NCBI GenBank assembly: GCA_038214755.1
Contig: JBBQRQ010000061.1
Location: 1-30,756, forward strand
Direction of reading: 5' to 3'
DNA length: 30,756 bases
Source of the DNA: Verrucomicrobiota bacterium
Lineage (GTDB): Bacteria; Verrucomicrobiota; Verrucomicrobiia; Limisphaerales; CANJXF01
A program made the position numbers and the translations under genes. Of the stretch, positions 15,367-22,241 are shown in pieces (the first letter of the stretch is position 1; each line of letters starts with the position of its first letter). The notes beneath the pieces were generated by a model. It did no database searches, had not been told where the DNA came from, and worked only from the letters and a program-made list of their open reading frames with translations.

Positions 15367-16185
15367 ATGCTTAAGACTCGAATAATTCAGCGCTGGAACG
15401 TCCGCTACGCTCTGGCCTTTTTTTTGTTCATCACATTTCCACCCGCTGTTTTTTTTCTCAGTTCCTGCTCGACCGCCCATCGCACTGCGATGGTTCCGCT
15501 CGAAATTCCCGGAGCAACCTTTGTCGGAAATAAAGTCTGCGTCGATTGTCACGCGCCGATCACGCGAAAATTTCCCGGCAGTATTCACGCGCGCGTCCAT
15601 TTCGATCAGGAAAAATTACCGGGCGGAACCAGTTGCGAATCGTGTCACGGGCCAGCCAGCAAACACGTCGCGGCCGGGGGCGGACGCGGAAAATTCATCA
15701 TCAATCCCGGAAAAGATCCCGCTGCCTGTTTGCAGTGCCATCTTCAAACGCACGCCGAATTTCAGTTGCCGCATCATCATCCCGTCCTCGAAAATAAAAT
15801 GAATTGCGTGCAATGCCACGACCCGCACGGCTCCGACATTTTTAAACCTTCCGGCGGATTGGCTATGGCACGACAAAACGAAAACTGCGCCCAGTGCCAT
15901 CGCGAGCAGACCCGGCTATTTATTTTCGAGCACGAAGCGATGCGCGAAGGCTGCGTCGTTTGTCACAACCCCCACGGCTCGATCAATCGCAAAATGCTCG
16001 TCGAGAGTGATTCAAATCTTTGTCTGAAATGCCACGCGCAAGTTCAAGGCCCCGGCGTGGCGCGCGGGGAAATTTACATCGGCAAAGTTCCGCACACCGC
16101 GCTGCTGCGTCAGGGAACGTGCTGGACGGCGGGCTGCCACAGTTCCGTTCACGGCTCCAACATTGAATCCAAAATGCGGTACTGA
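15367..16185 (+). CDS. MtrA/DmsE-like multiheme (octaheme) c-type cytochrome, probable lipoprotein
   Basis: CVDCH, CESCH, CLQCH, CVQCH, CAQCH, CVVCH, CLKCH plus CWTAGCH. MtrA-family signatures CESCHGPASKH, CHDPHGS, CHNPHGS and terminal CH..VHGSN. Lipobox-like LSSC (C34). Confidence 0.92.
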   Translation: MLKTRIIQRWNVRYALAFFLFITFPPAVFFLSSCSTAHRTAMVPLEIPGATFVGNKVCVDCHAPITRKFPGSIHARVHFDQEKLPGGTSCESCHGPASKHVAAGGGRGKFIINPGKDPAACLQCHLQTHAEFQLPHHHPVLENKMNCVQCHDPHGSDIFKPSGGLAMARQNENCAQCHREQTRLFIFEHEAMREGCVVCHNPHGSINRKMLVESDSNLCLKCHAQVQGPGVARGEIYIGKVPHTALLRQGTCWTAGCHSSVHGSNIESKMRY

Positions 16186-18642
16186 ATGAAATTGGAACAT
16201 CGAACATCGAACATCGAACACTCAACATCGAGTGAGTCGCGCCAAGAAAGATTTCATCGGAGTTCGATGTTCGATGTTCGATGTTCGATGTTGGTTTTCT
16301 CATCCTTCTTTGTTTTGTTGCCTTCAACTGCCTCCGCTGAAGTGGATGTTTCCAAACTCCCTCTATCCGCCCAAACGCAAATTGATTTCGCGCGGGACAT
16401 CCAACCCATTTTTGAAAAGTCCTGCTTGCGTTGTCATGGCCCGGAAAAACCGAAAAGCCATTTCCGCCTCGACAGTCGCGAGGCGGCGTTGAAAGGCGGA
16501 GAAAATGGCGTCGATGTTTTTCCCGGCGACAGCGCGAAAAGCCCGTTGATCCATTACGTCGCCGGTCTCGTCGAAGACATGCAAATGCCGCCGCCCGGAA
16601 AAGCCGAACCGCTCACGCCAGCGCAAATCGGTTTGCTCAGAGCGTGGATCGATCAAGGCGCAAATTGGTCGAGCGTCAATGCCGGGTCGCAAATCGCATT
16701 TTCCATCGCGCCAACTTTTCGTTTCATCCATGTCGAGGGCGATAAGAAAAATTTTCGCGCAATCGAAGGACATCGCGATGGCCCGTCCGCCGGTCTGGAA
16801 AGTTTTTCGTTCAAAGAAAAAGTTTCCAAGACCACCACGATCTCCGCCGAAGGCCGCGCGCTCGCCCGGGAAAATGATTTCGCAGGGAAGTTGTCGCTCG
16901 ACAAAACCGAGACAGGTTTCATTCGTGGAGGCGTCGAGCAATGGCGAAAGTATTACGACGACAGCGGAGTTTTTTACGAGCCGTTCACCCCGTCGTGGTT
17001 CGACTTGAATCGCGATCTGCACTTGGATATTGGCCGCGCCTGGATTGATTTCGGATTGGAACTGCCGCGCTGGCCGCAAATGATTTTCGGCTACGAGTAT
17101 CAATGGAAAGATGGCGCGAAATCCACTTTGCAATTTGGGACCGTCAGCGAAAAAAAAATTTTCCCATCGTCCAAAGAAATCAAGGAGCGGACCCACATTT
17201 TAAAATTTGATCTGGTCCACGAATTTCTCGACTGGCGCATCGAAGACAATGCCCGCGTCGAATTTTATAATTTGCAGACCCGCCGCGAGAACGTGAATCA
17301 ATTCACGTTTGGTCCGCAGCCCGACAGCCTCTCGCGCATCGAGGAAGGCGCTCGCCACACGATGGGTTTGAACACCATTCGCGCCGAGCGACAAATCGGC
17401 GACTGGCTTTTTTTGGCGGGCGGTTATTTTTATTCGAGATTTGACGGCGACGCATCCTACGACCAGTTGACGCTCGACAGCGCGGGAATTCCGGTCAATG
17501 GAGTTTTTTGGTTTAGCGACAACATCATCTTAAAAAACGAAACGCATCTGTTCAGTTTGAGCAGCGCGTTGACGGGCATCGAAGGTTTGAGCGTCTCCGC
17601 CTCGCTGCAAAATGAATGGGGCCATCAGGAAGGTTTTGGAAAAACTCATCTGGACGAAGGCGATCCGAGTGATCCGGCCTCGTTCCTTTTGCAGCCCGCG
17701 ACCATCGATTCCAACTTGGACAAGGAAAAGTTTTCAGAAAACTTTGCCGTGCGGTTCACCAAAATTCCGTGGACGGTTTTGTTCGCGGACGCGCGTTGGG
17801 AAGACCAGCAAATCGGTCAATTTGAAGAACAGATCGGCGATGGCAGTCAGGCTTTTTTGCGCGACACCGATGCCCACAGTGTGCGGCAAAATTATCAAAT
17901 CGGTTTCAATACCTCGCCCTGGCGCTCCGTTTCTTTTACCACGCAATACCAAAAGAAAATAAACGACAGCGACTACAACCATTTTCCGGATATTTCCATC
18001 GAAGGCGATGGCTACTCGGCATTCATCCGCGAACGGGAAATTAACACTGACGAAATTTCGGCCAGGCTCGTCGTGAAGCCAGCGAAGTGGTTGAAAACGA
18101 CTTTGTCGTATCGACTGGTCGAAACGGATTATTCCACATCGACCGATCCGGTTTCCAACGGAACGAACGCGCCCATTTCTCCCGGCGGAAATATTTTCGC
18201 AGGCGACCATGACAGCCATATTTTCAGTTTGAACGCGACGGTCACGCCAATCGCGCGCCTGAATCTCTCGACCACATTTTCCTACACGAAGTCGCGAACG
18301 GTCACCGCCGCTCAGGGGAATCTGTCCATCGTTCCTTACGCCGGAGATGTTTTCAGCGTCATCGGCAGCGCCAATTTTGCTTTGAACAAAACGACGGATT
18401 TGCAGGCGGTCTATTCTTTTTCAAAAGCGAATTACGGACAACACCATTTCGGCGAGGGCATTCCATTGGGAATCGATTACACGCGACACGTCGTCGGTTT
18501 TGGCGTGGGAAAAAAATGGACGGACTATTTGAGCACGAACTTGCGCTACAATTTTTATCATTACGCGGAGCCGAGTTCGGATGACCAGAACAATTATGTA
18601 GCGCACGGAATATTCGCCACGCTGAGTTTGAAATGGCCATGA
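16186..18642 (+). CDS. MtrB/PioB-like outer-membrane beta-barrel fused to an N-terminal planctomycete-type monoheme cytochrome c domain
   Basis: aa 66-161: IDFARDIQPIFEKSCLRCHG..RLDSREAALKGG..MQMPP..LRAWIDQGA (PSCyt1-like; CXXCH at 16423-16437). Then ~650 aa of amphipathic, aromatic-rich beta-strands ending GIFATLSLKWP. Abuts the multiheme gene (TGA-ATG). Confidence 0.85.
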   Translation: MKLEHRTSNIEHSTSSESRQERFHRSSMFDVRCSMLVFSSFFVLLPSTASAEVDVSKLPLSAQTQIDFARDIQPIFEKSCLRCHGPEKPKSHFRLDSREAALKGGENGVDVFPGDSAKSPLIHYVAGLVEDMQMPPPGKAEPLTPAQIGLLRAWIDQGANWSSVNAGSQIAFSIAPTFRFIHVEGDKKNFRAIEGHRDGPSAGLESFSFKEKVSKTTTISAEGRALARENDFAGKLSLDKTETGFIRGGVEQWRKYYDDSGVFYEPFTPSWFDLNRDLHLDIGRAWIDFGLELPRWPQMIFGYEYQWKDGAKSTLQFGTVSEKKIFPSSKEIKERTHILKFDLVHEFLDWRIEDNARVEFYNLQTRRENVNQFTFGPQPDSLSRIEEGARHTMGLNTIRAERQIGDWLFLAGGYFYSRFDGDASYDQLTLDSAGIPVNGVFWFSDNIILKNETHLFSLSSALTGIEGLSVSASLQNEWGHQEGFGKTHLDEGDPSDPASFLLQPATIDSNLDKEKFSENFAVRFTKIPWTVLFADARWEDQQIGQFEEQIGDGSQAFLRDTDAHSVRQNYQIGFNTSPWRSVSFTTQYQKKINDSDYNHFPDISIEGDGYSAFIREREINTDEISARLVVKPAKWLKTTLSYRLVETDYSTSTDPVSNGTNAPISPGGNIFAGDHDSHIFSLNATVTPIARLNLSTTFSYTKSRTVTAAQGNLSIVPYAGDVFSVIGSANFALNKTTDLQAVYSFSKANYGQHHFGEGIPLGIDYTRHVVGFGVGKKWTDYLSTNLRYNFYHYAEPSSDDQNNYVAHGIFATLSLKWP
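16195..16293. repeat. Inverted pair of heptamer arrays (GAACATC)x5 / (GATGTTC)x4-5
   Basis: Forward array 16195-16229, reverse-complement array 16260-16293, 30 nt spacer; lies in the 5' end of the porin ORF. Confidence 0.9.
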
Positions 18643-18659
18643 CGGCGTTTTCATAACTC

Positions 18660-21329: not shown

Positions 21330-21346
21330 GAGGCAGATGCTACCCG
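21330..21346. repeat. Fragment of the 15111-15248 REP family
   Basis: gaggcagatgctacccg is identical to 15232-15248. Confidence 0.75.
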
Positions 21347-21413
21347 CCAACTCCGGCTTGTATTTGTGCTCTGTTTATTTGATTGACTGGACCTGGCCAT
21401 TTCTAAAGCTTCA

Positions 21414-22241
21414 TTGATGAAAAAAAATCGTTCGCAAAAAATACTCAGCCTAATTTTTTTCTTAATTCTCGTCTTTGCCACTCCACTTTTCGCGATAAAT
21501 TATACGGTCGATGTTTTTCATTCGTTCGCGCCCGCCACTTTACAAATCAACGCGGGCGATAACGTGACCTGGATTAATCAGGACGATCAATCTTCCCACA
21601 CCACGACCAGTGATACCTTTGTTTGGAACGGGACTTTGGTGAATTTTCAAGATCAGTTTACGTTTCAATTCAACAGCACCGGCACTTTTCCTTATCGCGA
21701 TTCGATTGATGGATTTACCGGCACTATCACAGTCATCGCCGCCAACTCTGCGCCTTCGGTCACGATTACCAATCCGGCGGCGGGAGCAACTTTCGCAGCC
21801 CCCGCCACGGTTCTTATTCAGGCCATCGCGTCGGATACGGGCGGTAGTGTCGCGAGCGTGACTTTTTTTGTGGACGCCATTTCAATTCGCACCAACACGA
21901 CGGCTCCCTACAGCGCGACGGCGTCCAATCTGGTCGCGGGCACTCATGTTTTTTCGGCGGTGGCCACGGATAATTTGGGCGCGAAGGCGACCAACTCCAT
22001 CAGCGTCAACGTGACAAATTCCGTCATCAACCTGAGCGGCTTCAAACTATTGGGCGGGCAATTTCAATTCAATATCTCGGGACTCAGCACTGGAAAAACA
22101 AATTTGGTCCAGGCTTCGACGAACTTATCGAATTGGATTTCTCTTCGCACCAATGTCGCGTCCACGAATTTTTCCAGCTTTACCGACACGCAAACGCCCA
22201 GCTTCTTCCGCCGATTTTATCGCGTGACGCAGCTTCCTTGA
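21414..22241 (+). CDS. Secreted cupredoxin-like + Ig-like domain protein with C-terminal FYR domain
   Basis: Signal peptide; SFAPATLQINAGDNVTWIN..SHTTTSD cupredoxin-like domain whose ligand loop FPYRDSIDGF lacks Cys/His/Met; one Ig-like domain; ends RRFYRVTQLP. Confidence 0.85.
   Translation: MMKKNRSQKILSLIFFLILVFATPLFAINYTVDVFHSFAPATLQINAGDNVTWINQDDQSSHTTTSDTFVWNGTLVNFQDQFTFQFNSTGTFPYRDSIDGFTGTITVIAANSAPSVTITNPAAGATFAAPATVLIQAIASDTGGSVASVTFFVDAISIRTNTTAPYSATASNLVAGTHVFSAVATDNLGAKATNSISVNVTNSVINLSGFKLLGGQFQFNISGLSTGKTNLVQASTNLSNWISLRTNVASTNFSSFTDTQTPSFFRRFYRVTQLP

What the first reader, a model, noticed from the sequence alone, without database searches (positions are those of the whole stretch)
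15367..22241. Four-gene candidate extracellular electron conduit: octaheme cytochrome, cytochrome-porin fusion and blue-copper protein on an Ig stalk
Seen: four consecutive same-strand genes encode an MtrA-like multiheme, an MtrB-sized barrel with its own heme domain, a cupredoxin with intact type-1 Cu ligands plus tandem Ig domains, and a second cupredoxin-like secreted protein. Known: MtrAB/PioAB/MtoAB pairs move electrons across the outer membrane, with partners such as MtrC (decaheme), PioC (HiPIP) or MtoD (monoheme). Inference: this is a variant conduit in a verrucomicrobium in which a copper protein, not a decaheme, may be the extracellular terminal carrier (Fe, Mn or humic redox). The direction of electron flow cannot be told from sequence.
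Basis: partly seen in the sequence, partly recalled or inferred. Interest (0 to 1): 0.9.

Follow-up and report, generated by a model that had tools for sequence, protein, structure and literature searches.

The report
Copper-tipped electron conduit in Verrucomicrobia
These genes encode an eight-heme cytochrome, a predicted outer-membrane barrel carrying its own heme, and a stalked blue-copper-type protein, which likely form an electron wire whose outer contact would be copper instead of heme; this is a new variant of a conduit already proposed for this bacterial group.

Summary
Observation confirmed, with corrections. Gene 1 is an MtrA-related octaheme lipoprotein. Gene 2 models as a 26-strand barrel (best match MtrB) with a fused His/Met-type heme domain, inferred periplasmic. 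Gene 3 keeps all four type-1 copper ligands but is about 115 residues shorter than its orthologs. Gene 4 has no copper site. The octaheme–porin pair is already in print for Verrucomicrobia.

New here: the order has two paralogous conduits. The heme-fused type has a cupredoxin within 10 kb in 28 of 85 genomes (12 of 44 held-out loci) and another multiheme in 0 of 122 loci. The heme-less type has other multihemes in 19 of 19 loci and no cupredoxin. Rieske and monoheme heads occupy the same slot; a CusF–SCO chaperone often sits between cupredoxin and octaheme. MtrC-like proteins of the heme-less type end in the same C-terminal tail as many of the cupredoxins.

Best reading: a high-potential conduit with a surface copper carrier, probably taking electrons inward. 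Binding, location and direction are untested, and about two thirds of loci lack the copper gene.

The parts
15367..16185 (+). Octaheme cytochrome c lipoprotein, MtrA/DmsE-related (7 CXXCH + 1 CX4CH; lipobox Cys34)
16186..18642 (+). Predicted 26-strand MtrB-like outer-membrane barrel with an N-terminal PSCyt1 monoheme domain (C80/C83/H84, invariant M134)
   Evidence: homolog P0116 passes the PF11854 cut-off
16195..16292 (.). Palindromic REP inserted in frame in the signal-peptide region of the porin gene
   Evidence: 71 places in the genome
18660..18728 (.). Intergenic REP hairpin, no U-tract after it
   Evidence: 158 places
18763..18791 (+). Sigma-70-like site just before gene 3 (weak: 7 such sites found in the region against 4.1 +/- 2.3 in shuffles)
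18801..21056 (+). Type-1 cupredoxin (H56, C96, H99, M105) on a stalk of Ig-like domains; C-terminus about 115 aa shorter than orthologs
21069..21345 (.). Two adjacent intergenic REPs
   Evidence: 63 and 74 places
21414..22241 (+). Cupredoxin-fold protein without copper ligands, Big_7 domain, 70-aa C-terminal tail
22254..23057 (+). rdgB/Ham1, the conserved downstream boundary of the variable slot
14808..15014 (+). Remnant of a prepilin-type gene; the ECF sigma/anti-sigma pair found here in relatives was not found in this genome
13854..14780 (-). DNRLRE/CBM96 secreted protein with the same C-terminal tail; recurrent neighbour

Best explanation
The octaheme and the heme-fused barrel are predicted to form an MtrAB-like wire across the outer membrane, and the stalked blue-copper protein is likely a surface carrier that would hand single electrons to its outer end, probably for uptake towards the oxygen-reducing chain. 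Steps: (1) the lipid-anchored octaheme would sit in the 26-strand barrel, last heme outside (inferred from MtrAB); (2) the fused PSCyt1 heme lies on the periplasmic side and has His/Met ligation, so it would act as a built-in high-potential relay in the place of MtoD or PioC (side and ligation inferred from the model and alignment); (3) the cupredoxin is exported by Sec and probably onward to the surface (inferred from the tails); (4) Rieske or monoheme heads can take the copper domain's place (gene order shown, equivalence inferred); (5) electrons would come from reduced metals, reduced humics or secreted dehydrogenases and end at a heme-copper oxidase (inferred; weakest step). In this genome the copper module looks partly worn: gene 3 is shortened, gene 4 has no copper site, and the regulator pair was not found.
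For: Homology and fold: (top match MtrB 6r2q_B, E 1.5e-14, TM 0.55/0.63). The helix between strands 1 and 2 of the model matches MtrB's outer loop (PMC7198977), which puts the N-terminal heme domain inside. M134 is invariant in 82 rows. Copper ligands are kept in the cupredoxin neighbours other than the gene-4 family. Neighbourhood: 28 of 85 genomes, 12 of 44 held-out loci. Gap from porin stop to cupredoxin start is 1-22 nt in L056, L077, L083, L103. CusF-SCO lies in 13 of 122 loci, 12 of them with a cupredoxin; in 7 held-out loci the order is cupredoxin, CusF-SCO, octaheme, porin. Contrast: other multihemes in 0 of 122 heme-fused loci against 19 of 19 heme-less loci in the order and 17 of 20 loci outside it; cupredoxins in 38 of 122 against 0 of 19 and 0 of 20. 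NapC-like hexaheme within 10 kb: 0 of 85 against 21 of 58 genomes. Three MtrC-like 8-9-heme proteins in heme-less loci end in the same tail. Of 120 tail-ended proteins in this genome only gene 4 has a cupredoxin fold, so the slot is not a random draw of tail proteins. This genome has ACIII and two heme-copper oxidase subunits I; no NapC-family protein was found in it (97% complete).
Against: 84 of 122 heme-fused loci show no cupredoxin of this family and 75 of 122 no redox head at all, though many are cut by contig ends (with both flanks of at least 3 kb: 20 of 51 have one). 63 of 98 cupredoxin matches in porin genomes lie elsewhere. Heads without a cofactor motif (DNRLRE, head X) occur in 24 of 122 loci and alone in 16. 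L034 has DNRLRE and cupredoxin heads on similar stalks side by side. The tail's role as an export signal is inferred; it has no Pfam or NCBIfam model and a generic Fn3-like fold. Gene 3 itself ends in a different, shortened C-terminal domain. Copper to a bis-His heme would be uphill by typical potentials (recalled). 19 of the 28 cupredoxin-adjacent genomes have a NapC-like protein elsewhere, and A-type oxidases occur in 126 of 151 genomes, so neither fixes direction. The neighbour state is clumped on the tree (16 changes against 20.8 +/- 1.7 shuffled), so the counts are not independent.
Confidence: 0.35

Rival explanations
1. Hitch-hiking: the octaheme-porin pair works alone. The slot beside it collects small secreted proteins under a shared ECF sigma factor, and the cupredoxin serves some other redox chain.
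For: About two thirds of loci lack the copper gene and non-redox heads use the slot. 63 of 98 cupredoxin matches lie elsewhere, several with their own CusF-SCO neighbour. An ECF sigma gene lies in 34 of 122 loci. A promoter-like site precedes gene 3 here (weak). MtrAB without MtrC can reach soluble acceptors (PMC7198977).
Against: Redox heads occur in 47 of 122 loci against 1 cupredoxin fold among 120 tail proteins genome-wide. Gaps are very short in several loci. The heme-less paralog has none (0 of 19), although tail-ended genes occur near it.
Confidence: 0.25
2. Same parts, outward flow: electrons from ACIII or periplasmic dehydrogenases pass through PSCyt1 and the octaheme to the surface copper. 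It then reduces high-potential acceptors (chelated Fe(III), Mn oxides, Cu(II)) or primes secreted oxidative enzymes, as a low-flux assimilatory or catalytic branch.
For: Heme to copper is downhill by typical potentials (recalled). The copper protein stands where MtrC-like tail proteins stand in the paralog. Two Limisphaera isolates reduce ferric citrate and ferrihydrite and have a locus of this architecture (PMC13608581). The genome has ACIII and many PSCyt1 domains.
Against: No quinol dehydrogenase beside any of 85 heme-fused porins and none found in this genome. The Limisphaera strains also have the heme-less locus with a nonaheme, which can account for their iron reduction.
Confidence: 0.2
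3. The copper protein stays in the periplasm and accepts electrons from the wire, as rusticyanin does from Cyc2; Rieske and monoheme heads would mirror PioC and MtoD.
For: The three head types match the chemistry of known periplasmic partners of inward conduits (rusticyanin: PMC5566968; PioC and MtoD recalled). Heme to copper to oxidase is downhill. Only Sec or Tat signals are directly visible.
Against: Long Ig stalks. The tail is shared with an amylase, a subtilase and MtrC-like multihemes, and is replaced by PEP-CTERM-like ends in one paralog pair (L044). The barrel already carries an inner heme relay.
Confidence: 0.15

Closest known systems
Verrucomicrobial porin-multiheme cluster of He et al. 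2017 (PMC5615132)
   Same: Porin with at least 20 strands next to a cytochrome with eight heme sites; proposed for extracellular electron transfer (passages read).
   Different: The main text has no occurrence of 'copper' or 'cupredoxin' and calls the cytochrome periplasmic; the passages seen mention no heme on the porin. Loci outside this order have heme-less porins in 19 of 20 and multiheme neighbours in 17 of 20. Sequence identity with their loci was not tested.
Limisphaera iron-reduction loci (PMC13608581, Table S5g)
   Same: A lipoprotein (SPII) cytochrome with 6-7 motifs beside a 20-26-strand porin with one heme motif, and a second locus with a heme-less porin and a nonaheme. This is the same two-type split by architecture.
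   Different: The authors call the porins unrelated to MtrB, while the model here matches MtrB best. No cupredoxin term occurs in the main text or supplement. Matched by description only, not by sequence.
EET3/EET4 clusters of peat Verrucomicrobiota (bioRxiv 10.64898/2026.05.27.727921)
   Same: Porin-multiheme clusters in Limisphaerales, modelled as Mtr-like and expressed in situ (section 9 and passages).
   Different: They were selected by having extracellular multihemes. Copper, cupredoxin, plastocyanin and Rieske do not occur in the main text. The supplements were closed and could bear on this.
MtrCAB of Shewanella (PDB 6r2q; PMC7198977)
   Same: Homologous cytochrome, 26-strand barrel with a capped first loop.
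   Different: Eight hemes not ten, a lipid anchor on the inner cytochrome, a heme domain fused to the barrel, and no decaheme MtrC in the locus.
Cyc2-rusticyanin; PioABC; MtoABD
   Same: A cytochrome-porin fusion paired with a blue-copper carrier (Cyc2; PMC5566968); MtrAB-type pairs with one small partner (PioC, MtoD; recalled).
   Different: Those partners are small and periplasmic. Here the carrier has a stalk and a probable export tail, and the fused heme accompanies a separate octaheme.
Sideroxydans ES-1 cupredoxin cluster Slit_1812-1818 (PMC11429942)
   Same: Predicted extracellular cupredoxin proteins with a SCO gene, expressed more on solid Fe(II), where MtoA also appears (passages).
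   Different: Two are multicopper oxidases and the cluster is described apart from mtoAB; here single type-1 domains lie directly beside the conduit.

Membership tests
MtrAB/PioAB/MtoAB porin-cytochrome complex | Cytochrome homologous to MtrA/DmsE | tested here: met
   6r2q_A E 5.2e-24; TIGR03508 E 3e-42
MtrAB/PioAB/MtoAB porin-cytochrome complex | Ten heme motifs (decaheme) | tested here: not met
   Eight motifs; 144.8 bits against cut-off 192.2
MtrAB/PioAB/MtoAB porin-cytochrome complex | 26-strand MtrB-type barrel encoded next to it | tested here: met
   Model pLDDT 90.6 with 26 strands; top Foldseek match 6r2q_B; genes abut
MtrAB/PioAB/MtoAB porin-cytochrome complex | Porin passes the MtrB family models (PF11854, TIGR03509) | tested here: inconclusive
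   No hit for the window protein; the 47% identical homolog P0116 passes PF11854 (25.6 against 23 bits) but not TIGR03509
MtrAB/PioAB/MtoAB porin-cytochrome complex | Cytochrome sits inside the barrel | not tested
   The single complex job scored only the cupredoxin; insertion is inferred from homology
MtrAB/PioAB/MtoAB porin-cytochrome complex | Measured electron transfer across the membrane | not testable with these tools
   Needs bench work
MtrCAB | Surface decaheme (MtrC) encoded in the cluster | tested here: not met
   No other ORF with 4 or more CXXCH in 122 heme-fused loci or in the window
Verrucomicrobial porin-octaheme cluster (PMC5615132) | Porin of at least 20 strands beside an eight-heme cytochrome | tested here: met
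Verrucomicrobial porin-octaheme cluster (PMC5615132) | Sequence homology to the published loci | not tested
   Their sequences were not retrieved; the family was found in 19 of 300 other genomes of the phylum
Type-1 (blue) copper cupredoxin, gene 3 | His, Cys, His and axial Met in a cupredoxin fold | tested here: met
   H56, C96, H99, M105; PF00127 49 bits; aligns to plastocyanin and amicyanin
Type-1 (blue) copper cupredoxin, gene 4 | His, Cys, His and axial Met | tested here: not met
   No Cys in the protein; ligand loop missing in it and three orthologs
Cyc2 cytochrome-porin fusion | Monoheme fused to a small barrel that works without a multiheme (recalled) | tested here: not met
   26 strands, MtrB-like, and an adjacent octaheme wherever the contig allows
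Type IX secretion C-terminal signal (for the tail) | T9SS machinery present and CTD fold | tested here: inconclusive
   SprA_N search rang in no genome, controls included; tail matches generic Fn3/Ig folds at Z under 8; four secretins pass the cut-off

The most novel reading that the evidence does not exclude
Limisphaerales split one porin-octaheme wire into two conduits: a low-potential, multiheme-tipped exporter, and a high-potential conduit whose outer terminal is a swappable single-electron head (type-1 copper, Rieske or monoheme) shipped on a lineage-wide export tail with its own copper chaperone. No copper-terminated Mtr-type conduit was found in the papers searched. It would let aerobic heterotrophs draw electrons from redox chemistry outside the cell.
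Probability: 0.3. Interest if true: 0.88.

Novelty: new variant of a known kind. Interest (0 to 1): 0.66.

Why it matters
The surface terminals of Mtr-type conduits that I know of are multiheme cytochromes (recalled). A copper, Rieske or monoheme terminal would widen the known design and shift its working potential upward. The heme-fused porin was found in 85 of 151 genomes sampled from this order. Surveys that count these genes as anaerobic humic or iron respiration may be pooling two conduits with different jobs. Cultured Limisphaera strains have both architectures, so the split can be tested directly. The 70-residue tail on 120 proteins of this genome is a separate lead to an undescribed export signal.

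Tried and rejected
Complex prediction of barrel + octaheme + cupredoxin with the cupredoxin as partner: no answer (score 0.00); not used as evidence either way.
RNA runs: no RNA holder was listed.
Earlier findings of the scan: nothing by place or by words.
Sequence search of the porin against solved structures found only the heme domain; the fold search was needed.
Head X, which I suspected from recall to be HmuY-like: no Pfam or NCBIfam hit, Atlas hits unnamed, model pLDDT mostly under 50-70; left open.
Tail as a T9SS signal: not shown.
Oxidase distribution as a clue to direction: nearly universal; rejected as uninformative.
My first reading that hexahemes beside the outside loci were surface terminals: rejected, they match NapC/NirT and start with hydrophobic segments.
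REPs as specific control elements: rejected, they are genome-wide.
Greedy gene calling picked antisense shadow ORFs (cluster c5 and others); later counts use all ORFs.
Literature searches for a copper-partnered conduit: with term look-ups; none was found in what was searched.

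
Full report
**1. What is in the window.** The four ORFs are present and on one strand. Gene 1 has seven CXXCH motifs and a final CX4CH. Its last six hemes align to MtrA hemes 5-10 (77 bits) and its first two to hemes 1-2, so it is two hemes short on the side that faces the periplasm in MtrA (PMC7198977, passages); which pair is missing is not certain. It scores below the decaheme cut-offs. Cys34 follows a hydrophobic stretch and is kept in 67 of 67 orthologs with an intact start (4 of 71 cut or frameshifted rows left out), so it is a predicted lipoprotein. 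Gene 2 has a PSCyt1 domain with an invariant Met134 in an MPP motif, read as His/Met ligation (general knowledge). Its model has mean pLDDT 90.6 and 26 strands by my count of the listed elements; the best structural match is MtrB (E 1.5e-14, 12% identity). A helix between strands 1 and 2 mirrors MtrB's extracellular cap, which places the fused heme in the periplasm (inference).

Gene 3 has H56, C96, H99 and M105 and resembles plastocyanin and amicyanin. It aligns with three same-genus orthologs only to about residue 750-765 of 864-880, and the rest is not in the window. Gene 4 has no Cys and three orthologs also lack the ligand loop. The REPs are common repeats. The host group is Verrucomicrobiota, with several records labelled Limisphaerales, by the titles of homologous loci.

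**2. Distribution.** The barrel matched 114 of 151 genomes of the order (24 weaker matches were not listed). I split matches by porin score, not by neighbours: 85 genomes with strong or at least 40%-identical matches, and 58 listed weaker matches. Of 20 weaker loci fetched, 19 have a heme-less porin and one (G010) is heme-fused. A tree of 113 barrels separates the heme-fused set from the heme-less set (midpoint root, FastTree). Outside the order the octaheme was found in 19 of 300 genomes of the phylum; 19 of their 20 loci have heme-less porins.

**3. Do copper genes travel with the pair?** Yes, with the heme-fused type only, and not always. A profile built from the neighbours matched 74 of 151 genomes: 59 of 85 with the heme-fused porin and 15 of 66 without (the unpublished G009 is one of the 15 and is in all 151-genome tallies). 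35 of 98 matches lie within 10 kb of the porin, in 28 genomes, against about 0.4 by chance. Because the profile came from such neighbours, I tested 44 loci not used to build it (44 of 57 after removing duplicates): 12 have one. In the census (78 loci of up to +/-8.9 kb and 44 of up to +/-6 kb, many cut by contig ends; L109 and L110 left out as divergent), 38 of 122 heme-fused loci have this cupredoxin family, 5 a second copper family, 5 a Rieske protein and 4 a monoheme; 47 of 122 have any redox head and 0 of 122 another multiheme. The heme-less loci show the reverse: 19 of 19 in the order and 17 of 20 outside have other multihemes, and none has a cupredoxin. A NapC-like hexaheme (PF03264; 'ImcH-like' is my recalled label) lies within 10 kb of 21 of 58 weaker-match porins and 0 of 85 strong ones. 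A CusF-SCO gene is in 13 of 122 loci, 12 with a cupredoxin; seven held-out loci read cupredoxin, CusF-SCO, octaheme, porin, with an ECF sigma gene on the other strand upstream. Kin are not independent: the neighbour state changes 16 times on the tree against 20.8 +/- 1.7 for shuffled labels.

**4. Which side of the membrane?** Many slot proteins end in a 70-residue tail. It ends 120 proteins of this genome, of which only gene 4 has a cupredoxin fold. It folds as a six-strand sandwich with generic Fn3-like matches and has no named family. It also ends an amylase in the window, a subtilase, and three 8-9-heme proteins in heme-less loci that pass the MtrC/MtrF domain cut-off. I read it as an export or surface signal; this is inference. 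Gene 3 and its same-genus orthologs end in a different domain, also seen elsewhere in the genome, and in gene 3 it is shortened.

**5. Against the reading.** 75 of 122 loci show no redox head; with both flanks of at least 3 kb, 20 of 51 have a cupredoxin. Heads with no cofactor motif share the slot (24 of 122 loci, alone in 16). 63 of 98 cupredoxin matches sit elsewhere, some with their own CusF-SCO. In this genome the ECF pair was not found and the prepilin gene is a remnant; only one CusF-SCO match was found, on another contig. A weak promoter-like site precedes gene 3.

**6. Mechanism.** Shown: motifs, gene order, the two-type contrast. Predicted: barrel fold, lipid anchor, inner position of the fused heme. 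Inferred: insertion of the octaheme, surface location of the copper protein, its contact with the wire, direction and substrate. Both ends carry centres that are usually high-potential (recalled), unlike the paralog that pairs with a quinol-dehydrogenase-type protein and multihemes. No NapC-family protein was found in this 97%-complete genome, which has ACIII and two heme-copper oxidase subunits. I therefore lean to inward flow towards oxygen (0.35), ahead of hitch-hiking (0.25), outward high-potential delivery (0.2) and a periplasmic copper acceptor (0.15). That the two-gene core is a real electron conduit I put near 0.85.

**7. What is known.** He et al. 2017 described porin plus octaheme clusters in Verrucomicrobia (PMC5615132; passages; figure and supplements not seen). 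The 2026 Limisphaera paper reports iron reduction and lists a lipoprotein cytochrome beside a one-heme porin, and a heme-less porin locus with a nonaheme (PMC13608581; passages, section 22, last part of the supplement). A 2026 peat preprint describes Limisphaerales clusters (10.64898/2026.05.27.727921; section 9 and passages; supplements closed and may bear on novelty). Also seen as passages: PMC6344600, PMC11429942, PMC5566968, PMC8805035. None of the term look-ups found a cupredoxin tied to these clusters (searches; the library lacks most subscription journals). The links to the published loci rest on described architecture, not on sequence comparison.

**8. Verdict.** The copper link survives its test and proves to be one case of a swappable single-electron head, restricted to one of two paralogous conduits. 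New variant of a known kind; interest 0.66.

Noticed in passing
window 22023-22238, 13857-14072, 9547-9756, about 4458-4600: A 70-residue C-terminal tail with no Pfam or NCBIfam model ends 120 proteins of this genome; Fn3-like fold; one paralog pair (L044) has a PEP-CTERM-like end instead. Candidate export signal.
   Followed up: partly
window 16195-16292: A palindromic REP sits in frame inside the porin's signal-peptide region; a related repeat is in the ortholog in L032.
   Followed up: partly
window 14808-15248: Prepilin-gene remnant followed by a REP whose loop holds 8-nt tandem repeats; the ECF sigma/anti-sigma pair of relatives is missing here.
   Followed up: partly
L142:8298-8987, L152:2965-3672, L090:1644-3191 and others: An unnamed domain of about 125 residues ('head X') occupies the same slot in 10 of 122 loci; no family hit, poor model; not found in this genome.
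   Followed up: partly
G036:C386, G101:C105, G044:C117, G118:C71, G055:C1, G125:C29: A CusF-SCO gene lies within about 4 kb of a cupredoxin gene away from the porin too, so the two may move as a module.
   Followed up: partly
L219:13304-15613, L228:1272-3728, L235:13234-15588: MtrC-like 8-9-heme proteins ending in the tail, beside the heme-less porin.
   Followed up: partly
L191:2063-7869 (G000:C32): Cluster of a ten-heme cytochrome, a membrane protein, a cNMP-binding Fe-S protein and an FAD/NAD-2Fe-2S reductase; possible inner link, untested.
   Followed up: no
L194:5524-7572 (G000:C149): Nine-heme protein with a weak match to ExtM, next to an HbpS-like gene.
   Followed up: no
L084:3081-5810: Tail-ended sugar-dehydrogenase-like (GSDH) protein with heme motifs upstream of the conduit and a cupredoxin; one case only.
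   Followed up: no
L099:4694-8437: The octaheme lies at the end of a 1248-codon open frame; fusion or chance open frame not checked.
   Followed up: no
window 19119-19192 and 21720-21793: A 74-nt repeat (78% identical) at the cupredoxin-Ig junction of genes 3 and 4; gene 4 has an Ig domain that its 182-aa orthologs lack, suggesting exchange between the two genes.
   Followed up: partly
window 22254-23057: rdgB matches its family in two stretches with an insertion between them.
   Followed up: no
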